Below, in pieces: positions 2,747 to 21,808 of a stretch of DNA of 29,353 nucleotides. This DNA comes from a virus, in the IMG/VR virus record IMGVR_UViG_3300045988_109387, positions 1 to 29,353 of that record. The stretch is one strand, 5' to 3'. Position 1 is the first letter of the stretch, and each line of letters opens with the position of its first letter. The notes under the pieces are model-generated. The model searched no databases. It was not told where the DNA came from and saw only the letters and a program-made list of their open reading frames with translations. A program made the translations under genes and the position numbers.

Positions 2747-3637
2747 TCACAGGTAAGCCGGGTAGAACGAAACCGTCATCCGAGCCGTATTTGAATACTC
2801 ACCAGCATTGAAACCCCAAACATTCAACCCGGGTTCCGCCTGACTCCACTCACGACGAACGACACGACCACGGGCCGGATCCGTACCATCAACCAGAATC
2901 TCATGCGTCACACCATTGATGGTCACATAATGGGCACTACCAAGGCTCATATTAAAAGCAATGGTATGCCCACTCCCCACATGCGATACCTGCGGGTTGA
3001 CGACAGGACCGTCAATACGGATCATCATCGGGCTGGGAGCTGTACCATCATTCGACAGGGACACCTTGCCGGATATGACAGTCTCGCTCCACACCCATTG
3101 AGACAACGATTCGGTGGGATCCTCGAACCTGTAAGGGAAGGTCATACCCCCCGACGCGTTCGGTAGGAAGGAAGTACCGGACACGGGATCCAACCCATGC
3201 AGGTACGGGCTCAAAGACGTCAACCCAAGACTGAAACGGAGAATATTCACCCCATCCCATTTGATCAACGGTGCTGGCCCAGACTGCCATACCCGTACCT
3301 GACGGCCAATCTTCCCCAATCGTGCGATCAGCAGCATTCCACCAGTATCCAAAACGCTCTTAAACGCATTCCACGAAGTAATGCATGATTCCGTACAGCG
3401 GCCGATGATATGACCTTCGATCGTAATGGTCCGGCCTTGCAAGCGTGGTAGGTTACCATACCAGCCATCAGTCATGGTCTTTTCGCTCGTTTTCAACGTG
3501 GACGCGACACCGTCGAACAAGCCGGACACGTCCTGAAACGTCACATGCCATTCGCACCCGTTATCATCTACCCCATACAAGGGAAAACCATTCAACGTCA
3601 ATTGAAGATCGCGAGGATCAGTAGGAAACATGCTCAT
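2747..3637 (-). CDS. Distal tail protein (Dit-like)
   Basis: 296 aa, the first gene after the tape measure. Both position and size are typical for Dit. Confidence 0.55.
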   Translation of the reverse strand: MSMFPTDPRDLQLTLNGFPLYGVDDNGCEWHVTFQDVSGLFDGVASTLKTSEKTMTDGWYGNLPRLQGRTITIEGHIIGRCTESCITSWNAFKSVLDTGGMLLIARLGKIGRQVRVWQSGPAPLIKWDGVNILRFSLGLTSLSPYLHGLDPVSGTSFLPNASGGMTFPYRFEDPTESLSQWVWSETVISGKVSLSNDGTAPSPMMIRIDGPVVNPQVSHVGSGHTIAFNMSLGSAHYVTINGVTHEILVDGTDPARGRVVRREWSQAEPGLNVWGFNAGEYSNTARMTVSFYPAYL

Positions 3638-3655
3638 AAAACCATCATACCCTTA

Positions 3656-5707
3656 TCACACGTAGCAGAAATTAATCATTCGTACCGTTTCACGAGCCGC
3701 CATCGTCGGATCGGAAGCATTAACGGTAATCGGAGCCGACACTCGAGGACCACTGTTCGTGTCCGCTAAAACCGGAGACGAGACAGGAAGACCTGCCGGG
3801 CTGTTCAACAGACTGTTCGGCATGATGTCAGCGACCATGTGTTGGACCGGGTTCACAGCCAAACTCATGTTCGCTTCAACGCCCTTGCCTAAACCGGCCG
3901 GGATCATCTTGCCTATCTCGTCACGGAACACGCGAGACGGGGAATGAATACCCAACGCGGACTTAGCGGCGTTCACGACATTGGCGGCCGCGTTCTTAGC
4001 TGCCGACACTGCGCTGCTGATAGCGTTCTTAATACCGTTGACCAGACCCATGATGATGTTCTTACCGGCATCCAACAACCAGTTACCGGCCCCGTTGAAC
4101 GCGCCCTTGATCTTACCGCCGATACCCCGTACGGTGTTCATGACACTGTTGACACCATTCGACACGGCACTGGTGATACCATTCCACGCACTTGACACCA
4201 GTCCCTTGACCGAATTCCAAACACCAGTCCAATAAGCGGCGATGGAGCCCATGACCGAACTGATCACGCCTGAAACAGCGTTGATAGCGGCTGACACGTT
4301 GGCTTTAATACCATTCCATACGGTTGTGATGACATTGCCGATACCATTCCACACGCCATCCCAATCACCCTGCACCGCCGCCAGTACGGTAGTGATAATC
4401 GCGTTGATGACATTCATCACCGAACTGATGACCGTCTGAATATACGGGAACACCGCATCGATGGCACCCTGAATGGTTGACGCGACCGTCGTAAACGCGG
4501 CCTGAACAGTCGGCAACGCCGCCTGTACCACCGCAGCCAGATTATTGATGACCGGCGTGACAGTGGTCATGACCGTCGTCCCAACCTCCGTGAGTTTCGC
4601 GACCAGTGACCCCAACACCGGGGTGAAAGTTTGGAACGCAGCACCCAACACAGGCATGATCGCACTGCCGAGATTCTGACAGGCTTGCATGAACTGTTGC
4701 AAAACAGGCAACAATTGGCTGGACACGATCTGGGCTACCGGAGCGAAAGAAGACTGGAACACGCTACCGATCTGCTGTAAAACCGGACCAGCCGACGATA
4801 CGAGACCCTTGAACATTCCGGGCAGACTGCCGATACCATCAGCGAGTACGCTCATTCCCTCCGTCAACGGGCCTTTGAACGAGTCCAATATTTGTACGCC
4901 CACATTCACGACGGACGCTTCCAAATTACCCATGGCACCCTCGATGGTTTGAGTGCTCGTGGCCGCTTCCTTCGCAGCATCGGTCATACCCAAATCCATG
5001 ACGGCCTTATTGAATTCCTCGGCCGATATCTTACCCTTGGCCATCGCATCACGAAAATCACCCGTGTATGCGCCGTTCTTCTTCATGGCTTCCTGAAGTT
5101 TGCCGGATGCGCCCGGGATAGCATCACTTAACTGGTTCCAGTTTTCGGTCGTGAGCTTGCCGGCACCAGCCGTCTGAGTGAGTACCATGCCAACTGATCG
5201 GAACGTGTCCGCGTTACCGCCGGCTACCGCGTTCAGGTTACCCGCGGCTTCAGCTAAGTCGGCGTATCCGTCCACGCCGTTCGCTGCCAGTTGGGCTGTC
5301 GTGTTGCGAATGTCGGACAGGTCGTATACTGTCTGGTCGGCGTATTTTTGCGTGCTTGCGGTAAGTTTGTCGATGGTGCTTGTGTCCAAGCCAGCGAAAG
5401 ACAATGTGCTAGCGAACTTCTGAGCACTGTCGGAGGCTTCGATGATACCACCGCTAAGATTCGAGATAGCGTCCACGGCCATATTAACGCCAGTGGAAAC
5501 CAAACCACCCATCGCTCCCGCGATAGCAGCGAATTTACCGGCACCCCCGGAAGCCTTGGTGGACGACTTATCAATCTGGTCCATGCCTTCGCCGGCTTGG
5601 CGAGCGGATTGTTCTATCTGTCGGCTACCGGATTGAATGGTTTTAACACCGGCTTCCCAATCACTGGTGTTAATTTCAGCGTCGAGTATGAGCGTGGAGT
5701 CAGCCAT
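3656..5707 (-). CDS. Tape measure protein
   Basis: 683 aa and Ala/Gly/Ser/Val-rich. It has repeated W-x-G motifs (VWNGIGNVITTVWNGIKANVSAAINAV...WTGVWNSVKGLVSSAWNGITSAV) and follows the G/T chaperone pair. Confidence 0.9.
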   Translation of the reverse strand: MADSTLILDAEINTSDWEAGVKTIQSGSRQIEQSARQAGEGMDQIDKSSTKASGGAGKFAAIAGAMGGLVSTGVNMAVDAISNLSGGIIEASDSAQKFASTLSFAGLDTSTIDKLTASTQKYADQTVYDLSDIRNTTAQLAANGVDGYADLAEAAGNLNAVAGGNADTFRSVGMVLTQTAGAGKLTTENWNQLSDAIPGASGKLQEAMKKNGAYTGDFRDAMAKGKISAEEFNKAVMDLGMTDAAKEAATSTQTIEGAMGNLEASVVNVGVQILDSFKGPLTEGMSVLADGIGSLPGMFKGLVSSAGPVLQQIGSVFQSSFAPVAQIVSSQLLPVLQQFMQACQNLGSAIMPVLGAAFQTFTPVLGSLVAKLTEVGTTVMTTVTPVINNLAAVVQAALPTVQAAFTTVASTIQGAIDAVFPYIQTVISSVMNVINAIITTVLAAVQGDWDGVWNGIGNVITTVWNGIKANVSAAINAVSGVISSVMGSIAAYWTGVWNSVKGLVSSAWNGITSAVSNGVNSVMNTVRGIGGKIKGAFNGAGNWLLDAGKNIIMGLVNGIKNAISSAVSAAKNAAANVVNAAKSALGIHSPSRVFRDEIGKMIPAGLGKGVEANMSLAVNPVQHMVADIMPNSLLNSPAGLPVSSPVLADTNSGPRVSAPITVNASDPTMAARETVRMINFCYV

Positions 5708-13566: not shown

Positions 13567-14826
13567 TTAGCATACTGCGACGTCCCATGAGGGGAGTTTT
13601 GGTGGTTCGTAGCAGGCAAGGAGCAGGCTGTCGGCGAGGTCGGGGCTCCCGAGGTTCATTGAGTCCTTGTAGTCTTGTTTGCTTTCTATTTGCCGTTGGT
13701 TGCGGCTGGTTATGTGCCATTTGCGTGTGGTTAGTTCGGTGGTGAGTTTGGGGAGGTCGGCGAGTTGGGGGTTGATGCTGAGTTGGGGGAGCATGGTAGC
13801 GAAGTCGAACCATAGTTCCGAAGCGATGTTGGGGTATTGCTGATCTTTGGCTTTGCCGGCGTAGTTGATGCCGGTAACTGGTAGTCCGTATGTCTTGAGT
13901 AGGTCGGTGACTCCTCCGCCGACGCCTGTATCGTCGACGCGGATGTCGATCGGCTGGTGTTGGGATGCGCGTAGTCTGATTCGTTCGACTGTGTCGACGA
14001 TGCTTGCGTGGGTCCATGATTCGAGTGTTTCGATCCGGTTGCCTGTTTTGATGGTGAGGGCGGTGCGGTCGTTGCCGTATCGTGCGACGTCGACTCCGAA
14101 GGTTGTGGGTCCGTCGGTTGCCGTGCGTTGGAGGGCTTCGTTGATCATGGTGTCGCTGATGAGCTGGTTGTTGGTGTCGGCGTATGGGAGACCGAGCCAG
14201 ACGTGTCCGTAGTCGGCTGTCTGCTTGTCGGCTTCGATCATGTCGAGGACGTCTTGGCTGATGAATCGGCGTACGTCTTCGAAGGTGGTGTGCCAGTGGC
14301 ATGTTTGGCGTAGTCGTTCTTCCGAGTCTGTGGTGATGAAGTATGCCCAGATCGGATCATGGCTGGTGAGGGGGTTCCAAGTGAAGATCAGGGTCGAGTT
14401 GGGGCGTCTGATGGTCGGGATGAGTGTTGTCAGGCTTGTTTTGCTGATGGTTTGTGCTTCTTCGACCCAGCAGACGTCGATGCCTTCGATGCTTTTGATG
14501 GATTGGAGGTTGTCGTGGAGGCCTCGGAAGATGAAGCTGCTGCCGTTGATGTGGCTGATGCCGTCGCGTCGTATTTCGAAGCCTTGCAGTCCGAATTTTT
14601 CGATGGTTCCGGTGAGGAGTTTGTAGACGGAGTCGGTGATGGAGTTCTGGAATTCTCGGGCGCAGAGGACGGTGATTGGCTGTACGGAGGCTCGGAGGAT
14701 AAGGCTTTGCGCGACGGCGGTGCTTTTCCCTGAGGCTCGGCCGCCTGAATAGCAGTAATAACGATATGGTGGCGTCTCCGTGTGGATCCACCACCATAGA
14801 TCGCGGTATGGTCTTGCTATCTGCAT
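13567..14826 (-). CDS. terL: Terminase large subunit (PBSX/Terminase_3-like)
   Basis: 419 aa with Walker A GGRASGKS, Walker B DVCWVEEA and a C-terminal nuclease-like half. It lies directly downstream of the small ORF called TerS. Confidence 0.9.
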   Translation of the reverse strand: MQIARPYRDLWWWIHTETPPYRYYCYSGGRASGKSTAVAQSLILRASVQPITVLCAREFQNSITDSVYKLLTGTIEKFGLQGFEIRRDGISHINGSSFIFRGLHDNLQSIKSIEGIDVCWVEEAQTISKTSLTTLIPTIRRPNSTLIFTWNPLTSHDPIWAYFITTDSEERLRQTCHWHTTFEDVRRFISQDVLDMIEADKQTADYGHVWLGLPYADTNNQLISDTMINEALQRTATDGPTTFGVDVARYGNDRTALTIKTGNRIETLESWTHASIVDTVERIRLRASQHQPIDIRVDDTGVGGGVTDLLKTYGLPVTGINYAGKAKDQQYPNIASELWFDFATMLPQLSINPQLADLPKLTTELTTRKWHITSRNQRQIESKQDYKDSMNLGSPDLADSLLLACYEPPKLPSWDVAVC

Positions 14827-16835: not shown

Positions 16836-17015
16836 TTACTTGTCTGACGAGTCCCCTTCTTTGTCGGGGATTACGTCCGGGTCGAGGAAGTAGCATCGGC
16901 CGACCTTGACTGCGTGGAGTCGTCCCTCGCGGATGAAGCGGCGGACGGTCTGGATGTTGAGCTTCCAGCGGGATGCGTATTCGGGAACTGTTGCTGTGTA
17001 ATCTTTAGCGTTCAT
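16836..17015 (-). CDS. Excisionase-family/MerR-like HTH DNA-binding protein (59 aa), apparently leaderless
   Basis: EYASRWKLNIQTVRRFIREGRLHAVKVGRCYFLD fits the excisionase-type HTH pattern. I chose the ATG at 17015 because it has no SD and lies 7 nt after a TATAAT box. The track's TTG at 17051 is the alternative. Confidence 0.6.
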   Translation of the reverse strand: MNAKDYTATVPEYASRWKLNIQTVRRFIREGRLHAVKVGRCYFLDPDVIPDKEGDSSDK

Positions 17016-17022
17016 AGGTCTT

Positions 17023-17051
17023 ATTATATAACGGTTCGAGTGCCTGTACAA
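17023..17051 (-). promoter_or_regulatory. Sigma-70-type promoter: TTGTAC-N17-TATAAT
   Basis: On the minus strand the -35 TTGTAC is at 17051..17046 and the -10 TATAAT at 17028..17023, with an exact 17-nt spacer. The ATG at 17015 begins 7 nt after the -10. Confidence 0.6.
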
Positions 17052-17110
17052 CTTGTTTCACATCGGTATGTCGTTGGAGTGTGGGGGCATGGCCCGGAGG
17101 TTCCGGGTAT

Positions 17111-17158
17111 AAAAAAGCGCCCAACCGGGGGGAAGCATATGGAAACCCGGTTGGGCGC
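17111..17158 (-). terminator. Strong intrinsic terminator with no annotated gene upstream on that strand
   Basis: A 13-bp GC-rich stem pairs 17117-17129 (GCGCCCAACCGGG) with 17146-17158, around a 16-nt loop. On the minus strand it is followed by TTTTTT (17116..17111). Confidence 0.65.
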
Positions 17159-17276
17159 TCATCGGGGGAGAATATACGCGATGAGGTACAGGAACCAGTA
17201 TGGCTTCGTTTTGCCCGGATTGCAACCGTCGTGTGCGGCGTCTCGTCGTCCGTTCGGCGTGTCGCGATGGCGAACA

Positions 17277-17285
17277 TGATATTGT
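17277..17285 (+). promoter_or_regulatory. Extended -10 promoter PA (TGATATTGT) with upstream CGGCGTGTCG motif
   Basis: Member of the repeated promoter family. The motif is at 17255-17264, with a near-copy CGGCGTcTCG at 17236-17245. The conserved downstream sequence gaatACATCAAac is present. Confidence 0.5.
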
Positions 17286-17342
17286 GAATACATCAAACAA
17301 CGTAGGGCATCAAAAACCTACCAACATTGAAAGGAACAGAAA

Positions 17343-17620: not shown

Positions 17621-17669
17621 ATCCAATGAAAGGCAGTCGGGAAGGGAAACCAAAAAACTTACCGACATC

Positions 17670-17675
17670 GATAAT
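17670..17675 (+). promoter_or_regulatory. Possible -10 (GATAAT) upstream of dut
   Basis: Lies between the terminator and the dut RBS. It lacks the TG extension and the upstream motif, so support is weaker than for the other promoters. Confidence 0.3.
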
Positions 17676-17697
17676 CATAACACAAAGGAGAAACACC

Positions 17698-18108
17698 GTG
17701 GAAATCATGCTGGACAACGGAGCGCACATGCCGTCACGAGGCCACGAGACCGATGCCGGACTGGACCTGCGCACGCCGAAGGCCGTGACGGTACCGGCGT
17801 ACGGAAGCACGACAGTCGATACTGGAGTGCACGTGACGTTGCCTCACGGGTGTGCCGGACTGCTCGTCAGCAAGAGCGGCCTCAACGTCAAGCACAGCAT
17901 CACCAGCACCGGACTCATCGACGAAGGCTACACGGGAAGTATCGTAGTCAAGCTCTACAACAATGGATGCGAGGACTATGAGGTAAAAGCCGGTGATAAG
18001 ATCACGCAGCTGGTCGTGATCCCAGTAGTCGATGAGTCGTTGGAACAGGTCTCTGCGTTCAATGCGACGGAGCGTGGAGATAACGGCTTCGGGAGCACCG
18101 GAAGGTAA
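17698..18108 (+). CDS. dut: dUTPase (trimeric dUTP diphosphatase)
   Basis: I chose the GTG at 17698 because AAAGGAG lies 7 nt upstream. The motifs DAGLDLR, GLIDEGYTGSI and RGDNGFGSTG are present. Confidence 0.85.
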   Translation: MEIMLDNGAHMPSRGHETDAGLDLRTPKAVTVPAYGSTTVDTGVHVTLPHGCAGLLVSKSGLNVKHSITSTGLIDEGYTGSIVVKLYNNGCEDYEVKAGDKITQLVVIPVVDESLEQVSAFNATERGDNGFGSTGR

Positions 18109-18111
18109 GCC

Positions 18112-18447
18112 ATGTGGAGCGGACGGAGCAAATACCATGCGAAGAAAACCGTCGTCGACGGCATCACCTTCGACTCGCGTAAGGAGGCCGACAGGTATCT
18201 CGTCCTGAAGGGCATGGAGGAGGATGGAGCCATCGAGGGCCTTCACAGACAGGTCCGCTATGAGCTCGTGCCGGCCTTCGACGTGGACGGCAGACATTAC
18301 CGGCCCGTCTATTACGTGGCTGACTTCGTCTATGTGGAGGACGGCAAAACGGTAGTCGAGGATGTGAAAGGCATGAGGACCGACGTGTACAGGCTCAAGA
18401 GCAAGCTCTTCGCACGACGGTATGGCATGAGTATCAAGGAGACGTGA
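18112..18447 (+). CDS. DUF1064-family protein (PD-(D/E)xK-like nuclease fold)
   Basis: 111 aa. SKYHAKKTVVDGITFDSRKEADRY...YYVADFVYVEDGKTVVEDVKG matches the DUF1064 pattern. Confidence 0.75.
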   Translation: MWSGRSKYHAKKTVVDGITFDSRKEADRYLVLKGMEEDGAIEGLHRQVRYELVPAFDVDGRHYRPVYYVADFVYVEDGKTVVEDVKGMRTDVYRLKSKLFARRYGMSIKET

Positions 18448-18465
18448 CGGTCTAGGAGCGTGCGT

Positions 18466-18518
18466 GGCCCCGGTTGGTCTTGGGAAGAGATTCCCGGACT
18501 GGCCGGGGCCTTGTTTTT
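18466..18518 (+). terminator. Intrinsic terminator after the dut-DUF1064 unit
   Basis: GGCCCCGG (18466-73) pairs with CCGGGGCC (18503-10). The interior has wobble-rich pairing, and TTGTTTTT follows. Confidence 0.65.
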
Positions 18519-18586
18519 CAGCCATTCCTGACATGGTAAGGAGGTGGGCAGAAAACCGACTACCTTCAATATTTGAGATTGACCCT

Positions 18587-18650
18587 TCAATACCTAGGTA
18601 TCGACCCCTTCGATACCTAGGTATCGAACCCCTCGATACTCAAGTATCGA
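18587..18650. promoter_or_regulatory. Three 18-bp dyad-symmetric sites at exact 23-bp spacing (operator- or iteron-like)
   Basis: O1 is TCAATACCTAGGTATCGA (18587-18604). O2 is TCGATACCTAGGTATCGA (18610-18627), a perfect palindrome that extends to 20 bp at 18609-18628. O3 is TCGATACTCAAGTATCGA (18633-18650). Each is preceded by CCC(C)T. Confidence 0.7.
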
Positions 18651-18660
18651 ACAAAGACCC

Positions 18661-18716
18661 CTCTACTAGAGACCCTTCTACTAGAAGATCCTTCCACTAG
18701 ACCCTTTTAAGTAAGA
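18661..18716. repeat. Second set of short dyad repeats (CTCTAcTAGAG, CTTCTAcTAGAAG, plus two degenerate copies)
   Basis: The two clear copies are at 18661-18671 and 18675-18687, and the degenerate ones at 18691-18701 and 18704-18716. The period is ~15 bp, and each copy is again preceded by CCCYT. Confidence 0.55.
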
Positions 18717-18717
18717 C

Positions 18718-18775
18718 GGCTCCCGAGGGGAGCCGCGTGCGGCCCGAGGGGAGCCAATCCCAACCCAAAGGGATT
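18718..18775. repeat. GC-rich hairpin / direct-repeat cluster
   Basis: A hairpin GGCTCCC-gag-GGGAGCC lies at 18718-18734. CCCGAGGGGAGCC is repeated at 18722-34 and 18743-55. A second hairpin, AATCCC-N8-GGGATT, lies at 18756-75. Confidence 0.55.
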
Positions 18776-19249
18776 GGGAGCCGAGAGCGGTGAGGGGCCT
18801 AGCCTCGATGGCTTAGGTGACTGAGGCATGGAGCCATGGAGTCTGACCTGATGTCTTCCATGCTTCTTCCATGGCTCTGAGCATCGAGGTGGATACCGTC
18901 TGGGCTTCGATGCTGCCCTTCGGGCCTTGGTCTCGGTTCCCGACCTGTGGGGAGCATGGAGGAGAGTTGGTCGGCGCTTGGCTTAGGTGGCCCTCTCACG
19001 GCTTGTCGTTCTCGATGCTTTTTCGGTGCTTGTTTGGTCTGGAACGTCGCTTTCGTGCGTAAAGGCCTTTTTGACGGGCTGTCGTATGTAAGTCTTGACG
19101 AGTTACCGGAGTTGCCGGGAAAATCGGTCTGAAGGGCCTTTACGTGCGTTCTAGAGGCATATGCGGTAGAAAGCATGGGAGAGGAATGCCTTGAATGGAA
19201 GACTGAGCCACGCTGGCAGGCCCGAACTCAATGCCTTTTCCGAGACTTG

Positions 19250-19258
19250 TGGTATACT
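19250..19258 (+). promoter_or_regulatory. Extended -10 promoter PC (TGGTATACT)
   Basis: Lies ~35 nt upstream of the 19293 ATG and has the same TGnTATAYT form as the other family members. Confidence 0.45.
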
Positions 19259-19292
19259 TAAAGCAACACCAACACTAAGAAAGGATCACGCA

Positions 19293-19538
19293 ATGGATAT
19301 CTACGAAGCCATCAACAATCTCCTCGTCAAGAGGTATGGCGTCCACTTCAGCAAGGAAGGCGAAGAAAAGTCACGAAAGTTCTTCGACGGACTGTGTGCG
19401 AAGTTCGGTGACGAGGAAGTATCCGAAGCATGGGAGATCGCATGCGGGAAGTACGACAATCCGGTGACCGCGCTTTCGAAGCTCGGAGGCATCCTCTACA
19501 ACCGCAGCATCTTCAGCTCCTTCATCGAGGAGGCCTGA
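19293..19538 (+). CDS. Hypothetical protein (81 aa)
   Basis: The ATG at 19293 has AAGAAAGGA upstream. The longer track ORF starts in non-coding DNA. It is tightly coupled to the next gene. Confidence 0.55.
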   Translation: MDIYEAINNLLVKRYGVHFSKEGEEKSRKFFDGLCAKFGDEEVSEAWEIACGKYDNPVTALSKLGGILYNRSIFSSFIEEA

Positions 19539-19539
19539 C

Positions 19540-19830
19540 ATGGGAAAGCTGTCATTCGACGAAGGCCTCGCCGAAGAGATAGGCCTCAATGCGGCAATCA
19601 TCCACGAACGCCTTTCCGACCTCTGCGCAGAAAAGGCGAGAAACAACGCCGACTACCACGACGGGTCATTCTGGATTCGAATCACACGGAAAGAACTACC
19701 CGGACTTTTCCCGTACATGCCTCCGACTGCCGTCATCAGGGCGATGAAAAAACTGACAGACGGAGGCTACGTCCTCGTCGGCCATTACGATGAAGACCAC
19801 AACGTCACCAACTGGTACACTGCAACCTGA
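19540..19830 (+). CDS. Hypothetical protein, possibly winged-helix
   Basis: 96 aa, starting 1 nt after the upstream stop codon (one intervening base). LPGLFPYMPPTAVIRAMKKLTDGGYVLV resembles a wHTH recognition region. The function is uncertain. Confidence 0.45.
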   Translation: MGKLSFDEGLAEEIGLNAAIIHERLSDLCAEKARNNADYHDGSFWIRITRKELPGLFPYMPPTAVIRAMKKLTDGGYVLVGHYDEDHNVTNWYTAT

Positions 19831-20003: not shown

Positions 20004-20882
20004 ATGAAATACACGATCGAAGGCTTCAGCCAAGAAGCGGCGCTGTCCATGCAGGCCACCATCACCGAAAACGGAAACACGAAAACCATCAAACTCGACA
20101 TCGTCGACCTGACAATCCTCCGCTGGATCGTCGACTTCTACCCGAACATGAAAAAGACCATCATCGACGGCACGGAATACGCATGGCTCGACTACACGGC
20201 CTTCATTGAAGACATGCCCCTTCTAGGACTCAGCAACCAGTCACTGTACAAGCGGTGCATCAAAATGGTCCAGCTAGGCATACTCAAGCACAAGACAGTA
20301 CGCAGCAAGGGCACCTTCTCTTATTATGGCTTCGGCCCGGAATACCCACACCTCGTCAGCCGCAGCAACAAGACGGCCAACGCACCGGCATCAACCCAGA
20401 ACCACGCCCCCTCCACAGAACACGACCCATGGGCAGACACTACAACCGCAACCACCGAACAACCCCAACTCCCCATCGCCGAACCGGAACCCCAGCCACA
20501 ACCGAAAAAGACCCGCAAAGCCAAAAGCTTCGACGACATCATCGACGCCTACACCAACGACCCGACGACCAAGGACCTGCTCAGAGCATGGCTCCAAAAC
20601 CGCAAAGCCAAGCGCTCAGCCATGACCGACAGGGCCATCAAAAGCTGCATCGACAAACTCGACAGGCGCGCACAGGAAAGCCATATGAGCGTCAACGACT
20701 ACCTCGATGAGGTCATCTGCCGCGGCTGGAGCGCCTTCTTCCCAATCGAAAACTACCGAAACAACGGATACCAGCAAAAACCTCGGCAGCAATCCCAGCA
20801 GCCACACTGGGACCTCACGGAAGAGGAGCTGCGCAGACAAAAGGAAGCAGACGACGAGTGGATGAAAAACTGCGTCTTCTAA
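20004..20882 (+). CDS. Replisome organiser / DnaD-like replication initiation protein
   Basis: 292 aa with a wHTH-like N-terminus and a Pro/Gln/Thr-rich linker. The C-terminal segment LLRAWLQNRKAKRSAMTDRAIKSCIDKLDRRAQESHMSVNDYLDEVICRGWSAFFP is typical of phage replisome-organiser or DnaD-type C-terminal domains. It lies upstream of the DnaC-like loader. Confidence 0.65.
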   Translation: MKYTIEGFSQEAALSMQATITENGNTKTIKLDIVDLTILRWIVDFYPNMKKTIIDGTEYAWLDYTAFIEDMPLLGLSNQSLYKRCIKMVQLGILKHKTVRSKGTFSYYGFGPEYPHLVSRSNKTANAPASTQNHAPSTEHDPWADTTTATTEQPQLPIAEPEPQPQPKKTRKAKSFDDIIDAYTNDPTTKDLLRAWLQNRKAKRSAMTDRAIKSCIDKLDRRAQESHMSVNDYLDEVICRGWSAFFPIENYRNNGYQQKPRQQSQQPHWDLTEEELRRQKEADDEWMKNCVF

Positions 20883-20959: not shown

Positions 20960-21808
20960 ATGGAAAACGGAATCGACATCATCAACACCATCAACGCACG
21001 AGCTGCACGCCAATACGCGGAACACGAAGGAGACTACCGCAACGAAGACGGCCTTCTCATGTGCGGCAAATGCCACTCAGAGAAGGAGTGCGTCCTAACC
21101 AGGCCCGACGGCACCACGAAAACCGTCCACTGCGCATGCGACTGCAGTGTCGCACAGCACAAAAAGGAAGACGAAGAAAAACGCAAGCGCGACCGCATGC
21201 AATACCTCGACAGCATGAGACGCACCGGCTTCCCAGACGCGGAAATGCGCGAATGGGCCTTCGCCAAATCCGACCACGGCGACCAACGGAACGAAACCAT
21301 CGCCCGCAAGTACGTGACGAACTTCGACGCCATGCGCGAACAAGGCACCGGACTGCTCCTCTGCGGTCAGGTAGGCACCGGCAAAAGCTTCCTCGCGGCA
21401 TGCATCGCCAACGAGCTCATCAGCCAAGGCACTCCATGCCTGATGACCAATTTCAGCCGTCTCATCAGCCGGATCAGCGAAAAATTCGGAGGAGACCAGA
21501 AATACCTCGACAACCTCAACCGCTTCGACCTTCTCATCATCGATGATCTGGGAGCGGAACGCGATTCGGACTTCACATGGGAGAAGGTAATGAACGTCAT
21601 CGACGCACGATACCGTGCCGGATTGCCGATCATCATCACCACCAACCTCGGTCCGAAGGACTTCGCCGATCGTGGAGACATCCGCCGTCAGCGCGTCTTC
21701 AGCCGTTTGAAGGAGATGTGCATCTGCCTTGAAGTCAAAGGCGAGGATAGGAGAGGGAAGAAAATGCAAGACAAGCTGACATCGGCCAGACCACTCCTCG
21801 GCATCTGA
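20960..21808 (+). CDS. DnaC/IstB-like AAA+ helicase loader with an N-terminal Cys-rich region
   Basis: 282 aa with Walker A GQVGTGKS, Walker B LLIIDDLG and sensor IIITTN. The N-terminus has CGKCHSEKEC...CACDC. Confidence 0.85.
   Translation: MENGIDIINTINARAARQYAEHEGDYRNEDGLLMCGKCHSEKECVLTRPDGTTKTVHCACDCSVAQHKKEDEEKRKRDRMQYLDSMRRTGFPDAEMREWAFAKSDHGDQRNETIARKYVTNFDAMREQGTGLLLCGQVGTGKSFLAACIANELISQGTPCLMTNFSRLISRISEKFGGDQKYLDNLNRFDLLIIDDLGAERDSDFTWEKVMNVIDARYRAGLPIIITTNLGPKDFADRGDIRRQRVFSRLKEMCICLEVKGEDRRGKKMQDKLTSARPLLGI

What the first reader, a model, noticed from the sequence alone, without database searches (positions are those of the whole stretch)
18448..19292. An ~840-bp ORF-poor island in an otherwise densely coding phage genome
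Elsewhere, intergenic gaps are 0-170 bp. Here ~845 bp separate the DUF1064 stop from the next convincing start at 19293. The three-plus ORFs the track reports in it are repeat-derived or Arg/Ser/Pro-rich and look non-coding. The island is internally organised. In order it contains a terminator, a perfect SD-like AAGGAGGTG (18535-18543) with no start codon after it, two families of dyad repeats, GC hairpin repeats, a ~400-nt structure-rich segment and then a promoter. It sits just upstream of the replication genes, where one would expect an origin, an immunity or operator region, or a phage ncRNA locus. None of these can be assigned from known motifs.
Basis: partly seen in the sequence, partly recalled or inferred. 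Interest (0 to 1): 0.7.

Follow-up and report, generated by a model that had tools for sequence, protein, structure and literature searches.

The report
Phage origin repeats plus conserved non-coding element
The 845-bp gene-free island of this ~30-kb human-gut phage is real. It holds repeat arrays that match the phage's own replication initiator (probably the replication origin), followed by a ~400-nt conserved non-coding, probably RNA-forming, element that fits no catalogued family.

Summary
18448-19292 lies between a DUF1064 gene and a conserved 81-aa gene and does not code for protein. In 28 related phages, 26 of 28 indel intervals are not multiples of 3, and there is no codon periodicity.

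The island has two parts.

(1) 18560-18712 is a repeat cassette: four 23-bp-phased units, each built on an 18-bp dyad, then three or four 15-bp direct repeats. Relatives carry six alternative cassettes at this position. The cassette type matches the N-terminal cluster of the O-like initiator (20004-20882) in 29 of 30 genomes, even though the DNA between cassette and initiator gene is recombinationally scrambled. This is best read as an iteron-type origin.

(2) 18798-19197 (extending 5' to about 18713) is a conserved core. It is 84% identical across relatives, against 66% at four-fold synonymous sites of the flanking genes. It is 62% G+T on the + strand and folds better on the + strand (alignment z -4.2 to -5.4 versus -1.9 to -2.0). 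It has no Rfam match. Covariation is weak, no promoter was identified, and at least one relative lacks the core, so it is accessory.

My best reading is an origin-linked structured RNA, or a structure formed by the + single strand of DNA. This would be a new variant of a known kind and is of moderate interest.

The parts
18468..18516 (+). Intrinsic terminator of the upstream operon (dUTPase and DUF1064 genes). It is a long imperfect hairpin, GGCCCCGG...CCGGGGCC, followed by TTGTTTTT.
   Evidence: The scan finds the inner stem at 18492-18508 plus a T-run. The sequence is conserved in nearly all relatives.
18538..18546 (+). SD-like AAGGAGGTG. This is a chance match, not a ribosome-binding site.
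   Evidence: No start codon lies 5-12 nt downstream. The motif is not conserved in relatives, e.g. GGTAGGGGAATGG, GATGGAAGGCGG, AATAAGTGGCG.
18560..18651 (.). Long-repeat array ('P type'): four units at a 23-bp period. The first (18560-18582) is degenerate. Each unit is built on the 18-bp dyad TCGATACCTAGGTATCGA. These are the proposed iterons bound by the N-terminal domain of the O-like initiator.
   Evidence: TRF gives period 23, 3.1 copies, score 100; D1 and I1-I3. Relatives carry 3-5 copies. The repeat type co-varies with the Rep N-terminal cluster in 29 of 30 genomes.
18655..18712 (+). Short direct repeats ('short A'): AGACCC(C/T)TCTACTAG x3 at 15-16-bp spacing, plus a fourth degenerate copy, AGACCCTTTTAAG.
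   Evidence: TRF gives period 15, 3.1 copies, score 68; D2 and D3. Short A goes with P/T long repeats and W-type Rep. Short B (GATACTCTAG) goes with Q/R/S repeats and X/Y/Z Rep.
18713..18797 (+). 'Form A' 5' extension of the conserved element. It has GC hairpins GGCTCCC-GAG-GGGAGCC (18718-18734), a repeated CCCGAGGGGAGCC, and CCAATCCC-N8-GGGATTGG (18754-18777). In R/S-type relatives a different hairpin module ('form B', GAAAGAAAGAT..ATCTTTCTTTC) takes its place.
18798..19197 (+). Conserved non-coding core. It is under purifying selection, is 62% G+T on the + strand, and is more stably and more consistently folded on the + strand. The best-supported helices are 18831-18842/18868-18879, GCATCGAGG/CTTCGATGC (18881-18917), GCCC-TTC-GGGC (18918-18928), and the long hairpin at about 19056-19146.
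   Evidence: nhmmer finds it in every ~30-kb clade member except deletion variants. Identity is 0.84, against 0.66 at four-fold sites. 26 of 28 indel intervals are out of frame and there is no codon periodicity. Alifold z is -5.4 (+) versus -1.9 (-), and -4.2 versus -2.0. There is no Rfam match.
19250..19258 (+). Extended -10-like promoter element TGGTATACT for the 81-aa gene and the replication operon. The RBS AAGAAAGGA is at 19278-19286 and the ATG at 19293.
   Evidence: Exact match. The same GTGGTATACTT motif lies upstream of the 81-aa gene in L063, with near-identical variants in L207 and L233.
20004..20882 (+). O-like/DnaD-like replication initiator, lying outside the finding. Its variable N-terminal ~125 aa is the proposed iteron-recognition domain. 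An IstB/DnaC-like loader gene follows at 20960-21808.
   Evidence: PHROG 678 'replication initiation O-like', E=1.4e-16. Pfam IstB_IS21, E=6.5e-15. N-terminal clusters.

Best explanation
The island is the replication-control region of this phage and has two functional parts.

Part 1 (the association is shown; the function is inferred). The repeat cassette at 18560-18712 is the cognate DNA-binding array of the phage's O-like initiator. Dimers of its variable N-terminal domain would bind the four 23-bp-phased dyad repeats, as lambda O binds its iterons. The adjacent 15-bp repeats belong to the same specificity module. This array most likely marks the origin, where the initiator, together with the DnaC-like loader encoded just downstream, brings in the host helicase.

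Part 2 (inferred). The adjacent 400-490 nt (18713/18798-19197) is a non-coding element kept by selection for its sequence and for the fold of its + strand. It is most likely transcribed rightward from the cassette as a structured RNA that assists or tunes initiation. It could do this by activating the origin through transcription, by forming an R-loop or primer, or by acting as a regulatory leader of the replication operon. Alternatively it could work as the displaced + single strand of DNA once the origin fires. The element is accessory rather than essential, because natural variants lack part or all of it.
For: Non-coding:
- No Pfam match for any ORF in the island.
- ORFs are not kept in frame in relatives.
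- 26 of 28 distinct gap intervals are not multiples of 3. Variability by position mod 3 is 13.2/14.9/11.2, against 8.9/8.1/23.4 in the DUF1064 control gene.

Selection:
- Core identity to 16 relatives averages 0.84. Four-fold synonymous sites of the flanking genes average 0.66, and codon positions 1+2 average 0.89.
- Alignability stops at about 19197.

Iterons:
- These are the strongest tandem arrays in the window. The dyads repeat at a 23-bp period.
- Relatives carry six alternative long-repeat families (P, Q, R, S, T, U) at the same place.
- The family next to the core matches the Rep N-terminal cluster (W, X, Y, Z, W*, V) in 29 of 30 distinct genomes.
- The core between cassette and Rep gene does not track cassette type: same-type identity is 0.849 against 0.842 for different types, and the nearest neighbour is of the same type in only 11 of 23 cases. 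The optional element B and the 96-aa ORF also assort independently of type. Matched pairs are therefore maintained against recombination.
- Rep hits 'replication initiation O-like' (PHROG 678), and an IstB/DnaC-like ATPase gene follows it.

Structure and strand:
- Alignment-fold z is -5.4 on + and -1.9 on - with 18 sequences, and -4.2 versus -2.0 with 28 sequences. The central domain gives -2.5 on + and +0.9 on -.
- Single-sequence MFE is -229.5 on + and -163.9 kcal/mol on -.
- The + strand is 33% G and 29% T.
- In predicted pairs there are 426 G-U cells against 19 A-C cells. Transitions:transversions are 179:52 in paired columns and 219:209 in unpaired columns.
- There are two independent compensatory changes in the GCCC-UUC-GGGC hairpin.

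Rightward transcription is plausible:
- L063 has TTTACA-18-GATACT spanning the last long repeat and the first short repeat.

Precedents:
- The essential non-coding origin transcript of phage c2 (PMC7150918).
Against: - No sigma-70-like promoter is found upstream of the core in the window, and no terminator downstream. Transcription is therefore unproven.
- Covariation is weak. Only 6-7 pairs change on both sides, and the covariation score barely exceeds shuffles (53 of 500 reach it).
- The structure conservation index is only about 0.5, and the 3' domain alone is not significant (z -0.8).
- DNA energy parameters give an equally strong + strand signal (z -4.9), so RNA and ssDNA cannot be told apart.
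- The G-U versus A-C count is partly circular, because the structure was predicted on the + strand.
- L207 lacks the core yet keeps the iterons. L233 and L234 carry partial cores.
- The window's cassette has no clear AT-rich unwinding element (minimum 33% GC) and no DnaA boxes.
- One genome (L293) pairs a Y-type Rep with only a Q-type cassette. It is a 99.9%-identical deletion derivative of L013.
- The cumulative G-C maximum at 19489 has the polarity of a bacterial terminus, not an origin.
- Matching between iterons and Rep would also fit an autoregulatory operator.
Confidence: 0.5

Rival explanations
1. The core acts as single-stranded DNA, not RNA. When the origin fires and a fork moves rightward, the + strand is the lagging-strand template. 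Its hairpins would form a primosome-assembly, priming or helicase-loading signal. Known analogues are the ssi/pas sites downstream of the ColE1 origin and the dispensable, orientation-specific single-strand origins (sso) of rolling-circle plasmids.
For: - The + strand folds significantly better than shuffles with DNA parameters as well (z -4.9 on +, -3.5 on -).
- No promoter was found for an RNA.
- The element is strand-biased, lies next to the iterons, and is dispensable in natural variants, as sso elements are (own knowledge).
Against: - 400 nt is much longer than known ssi sites.
- The ssoA CS-6 motif TAGCG(T/A) is absent.
- The heavy use of G-T wobble positions suits RNA better than DNA.
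- The direction of fork movement is unknown.
Confidence: 0.17
2. The core is a trans-acting phage ncRNA unrelated to replication, for example in host takeover, as a decoy against a defence system, or as a sponge. It merely sits in the one permissive non-coding slot next to the origin. Element B in relatives would be a second such RNA gene.
For: - The core is dispensable and occurs as deletion variants.
- The same slot holds a second, optional, structured non-coding element that appears to be convergently oriented.
- The core does not co-vary with iteron or Rep type.
- Sequence is conserved strongly even in unpaired blocks.
Against: - No promoter or terminator defines a gene.
- The core is always directly fused to a cassette, and its 5' 116-135 nt are duplicated together with cassettes.
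- It is found only in this one phage clade.
- No target or partner protein could be identified.
Confidence: 0.18
3. The repeat cassette is a transcriptional operator, not the origin. Rep, or a co-inherited regulator, would bind it to control a promoter that reads through the core into the replication operon. The core would then be a long regulatory 5' leader.
For: - Three or four dyads at a 23-bp period resemble the tripartite lambda operators (own knowledge).
- -10-like hexamers (GATACT/GATAAT) are embedded in the short repeats of relatives, and a TTTACA-18-GATACT candidate exists in L063.
- No terminator separates the core from the 81-aa gene in the window.
- L234 has lost the TGGTATACT promoter, so its next gene would need upstream transcription.
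Against: - The replication genes have their own conserved promoter-like sites downstream of the core.
- In half of the relatives, element B, with a strong hairpin, lies between the core and the genes.
- Initiator-specific iterons are the defining mark of origins.
- Operator and origin roles do not exclude each other.
Confidence: 0.1
4. The island is a decayed gene, junk, or a conserved 'boundary sequence' that only serves homologous recombination between modules. Alternatively, it encodes a small protein.
For: - The core 5' segment is a recombination joint: it is duplicated, and deletions occur at short direct repeats.
- High-GC ORFs of 79-122 codons exist in every genome.
Against: - The core is far more conserved than synonymous sites (0.84 versus 0.66).
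- The fold signal is strand-specific.
- There is no codon periodicity, and indels shift the frame.
- There are no protein family hits.
Confidence: 0.05

Closest known systems
ori-lambda and O protein of lambdoid phages (PMC7466680)
   Same: - Three to six tandem initiator-binding iterons.
- An O-like initiator followed by a helicase-loader gene.
- Iteron specificity tied to the initiator.
- Lambda initiation also needs transcription through or near the origin.
The dyad symmetry of each lambda iteron and the N-terminal location of O's DNA-binding domain are from my own knowledge.
   Different: - The lambda origin lies inside the O gene and has an adjacent AT-rich tract. Here the array is about 1.35 kb upstream of the initiator gene, in a non-coding island.
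- A second family of short direct repeats accompanies the array.
- There is no clear AT-rich tract in the window's cassette.
- A 400-nt conserved structured element follows the array.
Origin of lactococcal Ceduovirus (c2-type) phages with the non-coding transcript PE1-T (PMC7150918, citing Schiemann et al. 2004)
   Same: - A non-coding region at the head of the early/replication genes, flanked by promoters.
- No ORF and no RBS.
- It produces a non-coding transcript whose length, sequence or structure matters for origin function.
- Several exchangeable origin types exist within one phage group.
   Different: - c2 origins replicate plasmids without any phage protein and have no initiator-matched iterons.
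- In c2 the transcript region is what varies between origin types. Here the repeats vary and the structured element is conserved.
- Here the element is missing in at least one relative.
- Transcription has not been shown here.
ColE1 RNA II primer with the downstream ssiA/pas site, and the sso elements of rolling-circle plasmids (own knowledge)
   Same: - A several-hundred-nucleotide, G-rich, highly folded, strand-specific non-coding element beside an origin.
- sso elements are dispensable and orientation-specific.
   Different: - No sequence or Rfam similarity.
- ColE1 has no Rep or iterons.
- The ssoA CS-6 motif is absent.
- Whether the element acts as RNA or as ssDNA is unresolved here.
SPP1 oriL/oriR 'AB boxes' bound by the replisome organiser G38P (own knowledge, not tested)
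   Same: - A phage of a Gram-positive host.
- The origin is built from two kinds of short repeats recognised by a DnaD-like or organiser-type initiator, followed by a loader.
   Different: - SPP1 oriL lies within gene 38 and has an AT-rich region.
- No associated conserved structured element has been described.
Large phage-associated structured RNAs GOLLD and ROOL (Rfam; 10.1101/2024.12.08.627333)
   Same: - Several hundred nucleotides long.
- Non-coding and carried by phages or prophages.
- Function unknown.
   Different: - No match to these or to any of the 4227 Rfam models, even at E up to 10.
- Covariation support is far weaker.
- The element is restricted to one narrow clade.

Membership tests
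Iteron-type phage/plasmid origin (lambda O-like) | Three or more tandem repeats at a regular, helically phased spacing | tested here: met
   There are four units at a 23-bp period (TRF score 100, the highest in the window). Relatives have 3-5 units.
Iteron-type phage/plasmid origin (lambda O-like) | A cognate initiator gene and a helicase-loader gene nearby | tested here: met
   The gene at 20004-20882 hits PHROG 678 'replication initiation O-like' (E=1.4e-16). The gene at 20960-21808 hits Pfam IstB_IS21 (E=6.5e-15).
Iteron-type phage/plasmid origin (lambda O-like) | Repeat sequence co-varies with the initiator's DNA-recognition domain | tested here: met
   29 of 30 genomes match across six repeat families and six Rep N-terminal clusters, despite recombination of the DNA between them. 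The one exception, L293, is a deletion derivative of L013.
Iteron-type phage/plasmid origin (lambda O-like) | An adjacent AT-rich DNA-unwinding element | tested here: inconclusive
   In the window the lowest 30-mer in 18520-18800 is 33% GC, at 18550. The R-type relative L063 has a 20%-GC 30-mer between its long and short repeats.
Iteron-type phage/plasmid origin (lambda O-like) | The initiator binds the repeats, and the fragment supports initiator-dependent replication | not testable with these tools
   This needs EMSA or footprinting, a plasmid replication assay, or origin mapping.
Any described RNA family (Rfam 15, including GOLLD, ROOL, hammerhead, riboswitches, tmRNA, group I/II introns) | A covariance-model match at the gathering score | tested here: not met
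   There are no matches at gathering score in the window or in six relatives. Only chance-level hits appear at E up to 10. There are no tRNA or tmRNA genes.
Structured non-coding RNA (generic) | Conserved secondary structure supported by compensatory changes | tested here: inconclusive
   96.6% of cells are paired, and 52 pairs are polymorphic between Watson-Crick and G-U. Only 6-7 pairs change on both sides. 53 of 500 shuffles reach the covariation score. SCI is about 0.5. Sequence divergence is too low (82-85% mean column identity).
Structured non-coding RNA (generic) | A defined transcription unit (promoter, terminator, detected transcript) | tested here: inconclusive
   No consensus promoter or terminator flanks the core in the window. 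L063 has a candidate, TTTACA-18-GATACT. No expression data are available.
Origin-transcript RNAs (c2 PE1-T, ColE1 RNA II) | The transcript is required in cis for origin function | tested here: inconclusive
   L207 keeps the iterons but lacks the core. L233 and L234 have partial cores. This argues against essentiality, but the viability of these metagenomic variants is unknown.
Protein-coding gene | A reading frame kept across relatives, with three-base periodicity of substitutions and in-frame indels | tested here: not met
   26 of 28 gap intervals are out of frame. Variability by position is 13.2/14.9/11.2, against 8.9/8.1/23.4 in the control gene. There are no family hits.
ssoA-type single-strand origin | The conserved CS-6 motif TAGCG(T/A) in a terminal loop, with orientation-specific function | tested here: not met
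   There is no TAGCGT or TAGCGA anywhere in 18448-19292. Function cannot be tested here.

The most novel reading that the evidence does not exclude
The core, and with it the optional convergent element B found in relatives, would be a new family of large (~400-500 nt) structured phage RNAs carried in the origin region of a clade of human-gut, probably actinobacterial, phages.

Two functions remain open. One is an RNA-based layer of replication control or priming that works with interchangeable Rep-iteron specificity cassettes. The other is a trans-acting RNA directed at the host.
Probability: 0.3. Interest if true: 0.75.

Novelty: new variant of a known kind. Interest (0 to 1): 0.55.

Why it matters
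If the reading is right, this clade gives a clean natural experiment in origin specificity. Six interchangeable iteron cassettes are each paired with a matching initiator N-terminal domain, in otherwise near-identical gut phages. That would be useful for predicting origins and replication incompatibility in uncultured phages.

It also points to a selected ~400-nt structured non-coding element fused to the origin that is in no RNA catalogue searched here. Origin-linked RNAs are known from only a few model systems (ColE1, T4/T7, phage c2). A conserved one beside a Rep-iteron origin would be a testable new case.

If the core turns out to be ordinary, the island is simply the phage's origin or regulatory region.

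Tried and rejected
- **Rfam.** Scans at gathering score and at E up to 10 on the window and on relatives gave nothing meaningful.
- **tRNA/tmRNA.** None found.
- **Isolated phages.** blastn of the island against 50,697 phage records gave no match. By large terminase the nearest isolates are Bifidobacterium asteroides phages, at 49% identity.
- **Genome scan.** My 14-base pattern was too short and returned only chance hits. None aligned to the island. The host was therefore not identified directly.
- **Metagenome scans.** The first pattern had a spacing error and found nothing. The corrected scan found 13 contigs. Those long enough to judge are ~29-30-kb contigs of the same clade, and several are labelled human gut.
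- **Hammerhead idea.** A hammerhead-like CUGACGAG...GAAA motif in the core caught my eye, but no hammerhead model matched.
- **SD-like AAGGAGGTG.** Not conserved in relatives.
- **ORFs.** The minus-strand 125-aa ORF and the plus-strand 63-aa ORF are not kept in frame in relatives.
- **The 96-aa winged-helix protein and the 81-aa protein as iteron binders.** The 96-aa ORF is absent from several genomes that have iterons. Identity of the 81-aa protein does not follow repeat type.
- **More distant relatives.** In L237 (DUF1064 69% identical) the gap between DUF1064 and Rep is only 135 bp, and nhmmer finds no core.
- **Other motifs.** No DnaA boxes and no ssoA CS-6 motif.
- **GC skew as an origin marker.** The extremes at 5288 and 19489 are almost antipodal, but the polarity is opposite to the bacterial convention and the pattern may reflect coding composition. 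I treat it as inconclusive.
- **PDB and NCBIfam searches** of Rep and of the small proteins added nothing.
- **Complementarity.** A 10-nt complement between the core (19093-19102) and the 81-aa ORF (19323-19332) was not followed up. It overlaps a conserved codon block.
Full report
**Context**

The window is a ~29.4-kb tailed-phage genome with 54% GC.
- Structural genes lie on the minus strand: large terminase 13567-14826, portal, capsid/protease, tape measure 3656-5707.
- An early/replication arm lies on the plus strand: dUTPase 17626-18108, DUF1064 18112-18447, an 81-aa protein 19293-19538, a 96-aa winged-helix protein 19540-19830, an O-like/DnaD-like initiator 20004-20882, an IstB/DnaC-like loader 20960-21808, and later ERF and YqaJ recombination genes.
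- The nearest isolated phages by large terminase are Bifidobacterium asteroides phages BlindBasel1 and BlindUri1, at 49% identity.
- DNA relatives are ~29-31-kb contigs in IMG/VR, and ~29-30-kb metagenome contigs, several of them labelled human gut.

**1. The observation**

- The 845 bp between the DUF1064 stop and ATG 19293 contain no supported gene. The mechanical ORFs there have no Pfam match.
- Corrections are as follows. The SD-like AAGGAGGTG is at 18538-18546 and is not conserved. The 15-bp family is direct, not dyad. There is a fourth, degenerate 23-bp unit at 18560-18582. One other gap, 17052-17342, is about 290 bp.

**2. The island does not code for protein, but it is under selection**

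- blastn and nhmmer show it is conserved in every member of the ~30-kb clade, at 73-90% identity.
- In a 28-genome alignment of the core, 26 of 28 distinct gap intervals are not multiples of three. Variability by position mod 3 is flat (13.2/14.9/11.2). The neighbouring DUF1064 gene gives 8.9/8.1/23.4 and has only 3- and 6-nt gaps.
- Stop-free frames differ between genomes.
- Core identity to 16 relatives averages 0.84. Four-fold degenerate sites of the flanking genes average 0.66, and codon positions 1+2 average 0.89.
- Alignability ends abruptly at about 19197. The core is therefore constrained almost as tightly as coding positions.

**3. The repeat cassette**

- In the window, four 23-bp units each carry the 18-bp dyad TCGATACCTAGGTATCGA. 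They are followed by AGACCCTTCTACTAG x3-4.
- Relatives have the same architecture with different sequences:
  - Long repeats come in types P, Q (CCGCAAAATCAKGG), R (CTGYAAAATTTRCA), S (CTCAAAATGAGGGTG), T and U.
  - Each long-repeat array is followed by a short-repeat family: 'short A' CTTCTACTAG with P and T, 'short B' GATACTCTAG with Q, R and S.
  - A hairpin module follows, either form A or form B.
  - Several genomes carry two cassettes in tandem, each with a copy of the first 116-135 nt of the core.
- The N-terminal 130 aa of the initiator fall into clusters W, W*, X, Y, Z and V.
- The cassette next to the core matches the cluster as follows: W-P (4 genomes), W*-T (1), X-Q (8), Y-S (8), Z-R (7), V-U (1). 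That is 29 of 30 distinct genomes.
- The one exception, L293, is 99.9% identical to L013. It lacks the S cassette and one copy of the duplicated core segment, so it is either a recombinational deletion or an assembly collapse.
- The DNA between cassette and Rep gene is scrambled with respect to type:
  - Core identity is 0.849 within types and 0.842 between types, and the nearest neighbour is of the same type in only 11 of 23 cases.
  - The optional element B and the 96-aa ORF assort independently of type.
- Matched cassette-initiator pairs are thus maintained against recombination. This is the signature of a protein and its cognate binding array. With an O-like initiator and a DnaC-like loader, an iteron origin is the most economical reading. 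A Rep operator is the alternative, and the two are not mutually exclusive.

**4. The conserved core**

Rfam finds nothing.

Evidence for a structure on the + strand:
- Alignment folding gives -94.9 kcal/mol, against -69.0 +/- 4.8 for column shuffles (z -5.4). The minus strand gives z -1.9.
- With 28 sequences the values are z -4.2 versus -2.0. By domain:

| Domain | z on + | z on - |
|---|---|---|
| 5' hairpin domain | -5.9 | -3.7 |
| central domain | -2.5 | +0.9 |
| 3' domain | -0.8 | -1.0 |

  The overall SCI is about 0.5.
- The + strand is 33% G and 29% T. It folds to -229.5 kcal/mol, against -163.9 for its complement.
- In predicted pairs, variation is almost all wobble-compatible: 426 G-U cells against 19 A-C cells. 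Transitions:transversions are 179:52 in paired columns and 219:209 in unpaired columns. This count is partly circular, because the structure was predicted on the + strand.
- The hairpin GCCC-UUC-GGGC shows two independent compensatory changes.

Limits of that evidence:
- Only 6-7 pairs change on both sides, and 53 of 500 shuffles reach the covariation score. The sequences are too similar for a decisive test.
- DNA energy parameters give the same strand preference (z -4.9 versus -3.5). RNA and + strand ssDNA cannot be told apart.
- No consensus promoter precedes the core in the window and no terminator follows it.
- In L063 a TTTACA-18-GATACT candidate spans the last long repeat and the first short repeat. 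The short repeats of Q/R/S cassettes contain -10-like GATACT/GATAAT hexamers.

**5. Dispensability**

- L207 keeps the terminator, iterons, form-B hairpin and downstream promoter but lacks the whole core. The junction is at an AAGCCTT/AAGGCTT microhomology.
- L234 fuses the first ~170 nt of the core to the middle of the 81-aa gene.
- L233 lacks one sub-domain, deleted between the direct repeats AGCATCGAGG and AGCATGGAGG.
- More distant relatives have only 135 bp between DUF1064 and a single-chain Rep, and no core.
- The core is therefore an accessory, clade-specific addition to the origin region.

**6. Mechanism proposed**

- Shown: the island is non-coding, the core is under selection, the repeats match the Rep type, and the fold signal is biased to the + strand.
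- Inferred: Rep N-terminal dimers bind the phased dyads and nucleate an origin complex. The core, transcribed rightward or exposed as the displaced + strand, helps or tunes initiation, or acts as a leader for the replication operon.
- Rivals are listed with probabilities in the rival-explanations section: an ssDNA priming signal, an unrelated trans-acting RNA, an operator plus leader, and junk or coding sequence.

**7. Comparison with known systems**

- The cassette works like ori-lambda with O protein (PMC7466680), but it lies outside the initiator gene and has a second repeat family.
- The pairing of an origin with a non-coding structured element recalls the c2 PE1-T transcript (PMC7150918) and ColE1 RNA II/ssiA. 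Here, however, the structured part is conserved while the protein-binding part varies, and the element is not essential.
- It is not a member of any Rfam family.
- Large catalogues of candidate structured RNAs from IMG/VR and from human microbiomes exist (PMC10690425, PMC8040213). I could not check whether this element is listed in them, because no supplementary files are held.

**Verdict**

The island is a real, organised, non-coding region. It is probably the phage origin with exchangeable specificity cassettes, plus a constrained ~400-nt element of unknown role that is best explained as an origin-linked structured RNA. I class it as a new variant of a known kind, with interest 0.55.

Noticed in passing
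L063:6262-6830; L001:2583-3096 (absent from the window; the insertion point corresponds to window ~19206/19241): About half of the relatives carry 'element B', a ~480-540-bp non-coding insert between the core and the 81-aa gene. Its centre is 85-95% conserved, with 1-4-nt gaps. It has no Rfam or tRNA match. It folds strongly in alignment (z -5.5 on +, -6.0 on -) and is C/A-rich on the + strand. A strong minus-strand intrinsic terminator sits at its left edge (17 pairs plus a T-run). It is probably a second structured RNA, on the minus strand and convergent with the core.
   Followed up: partly
L207:~3600-3990; L234:4660-4960; L233:4660-4990; L293 versus L013: Natural deletion variants of the island exist. 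The whole core is lost in L207. In L234 the 3' part of the core and half of the 81-aa gene are lost. L233 has lost one sub-domain. L293 has lost one cassette. All junctions lie at short or long direct repeats.
   Followed up: yes
L009, L011, L013, L061, L069, L200, L225, L259 (upstream of their cores): These genomes carry two repeat cassettes in tandem, most with a duplicated copy of the first 116-135 nt of the core after the distal cassette. This implies that cassettes are exchanged by recombination within the 5' end of the core.
   Followed up: partly
window 5288 and 19489: Cumulative G-C has its minimum at 5288, inside the tape-measure gene where gene orientation does not change. Its maximum is at 19489, about 200 nt right of the island. 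The two points are 14,201 nt apart, or 48% of the genome. The near-antipodal pattern hints at replication asymmetry, but the polarity is that of a bacterial terminus at the island. It may instead reflect codon composition.
   Followed up: partly
window 17052-17342: This is the second-largest non-coding gap. It is the divergent region between the minus-strand HTH/excisionase-like gene (16836-17051) and the first plus-strand gene (17343). It contains a perfect 14-bp inverted repeat, AGCGCCCAACCGGG/CCCGGTTGGGCGCT, at 17116-17159. It is probably the early regulatory switch.
   Followed up: no
window 19540-19830; L237:4472-5251: The 96-aa protein is a stand-alone winged-helix domain that matches the N-terminus of a PHROG 'replication initiation protein' family. 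By eye its sequence resembles the N-terminus of the single-chain Rep of the more distant relative L237. The ORF is present in only some clade members, so the initiator module appears to be split or variable.
   Followed up: partly
window 19095-19124: A promoter-like site lies inside the core: TTGACG, an 18-nt spacer, then GAAAAT. Its hexamers overlap blocks that are invariant across relatives (ACGAGTTA and AAA.CGGT). It could be an internal rightward promoter or a chance match; 2.2 such sites are expected by chance in the scanned region.
   Followed up: no
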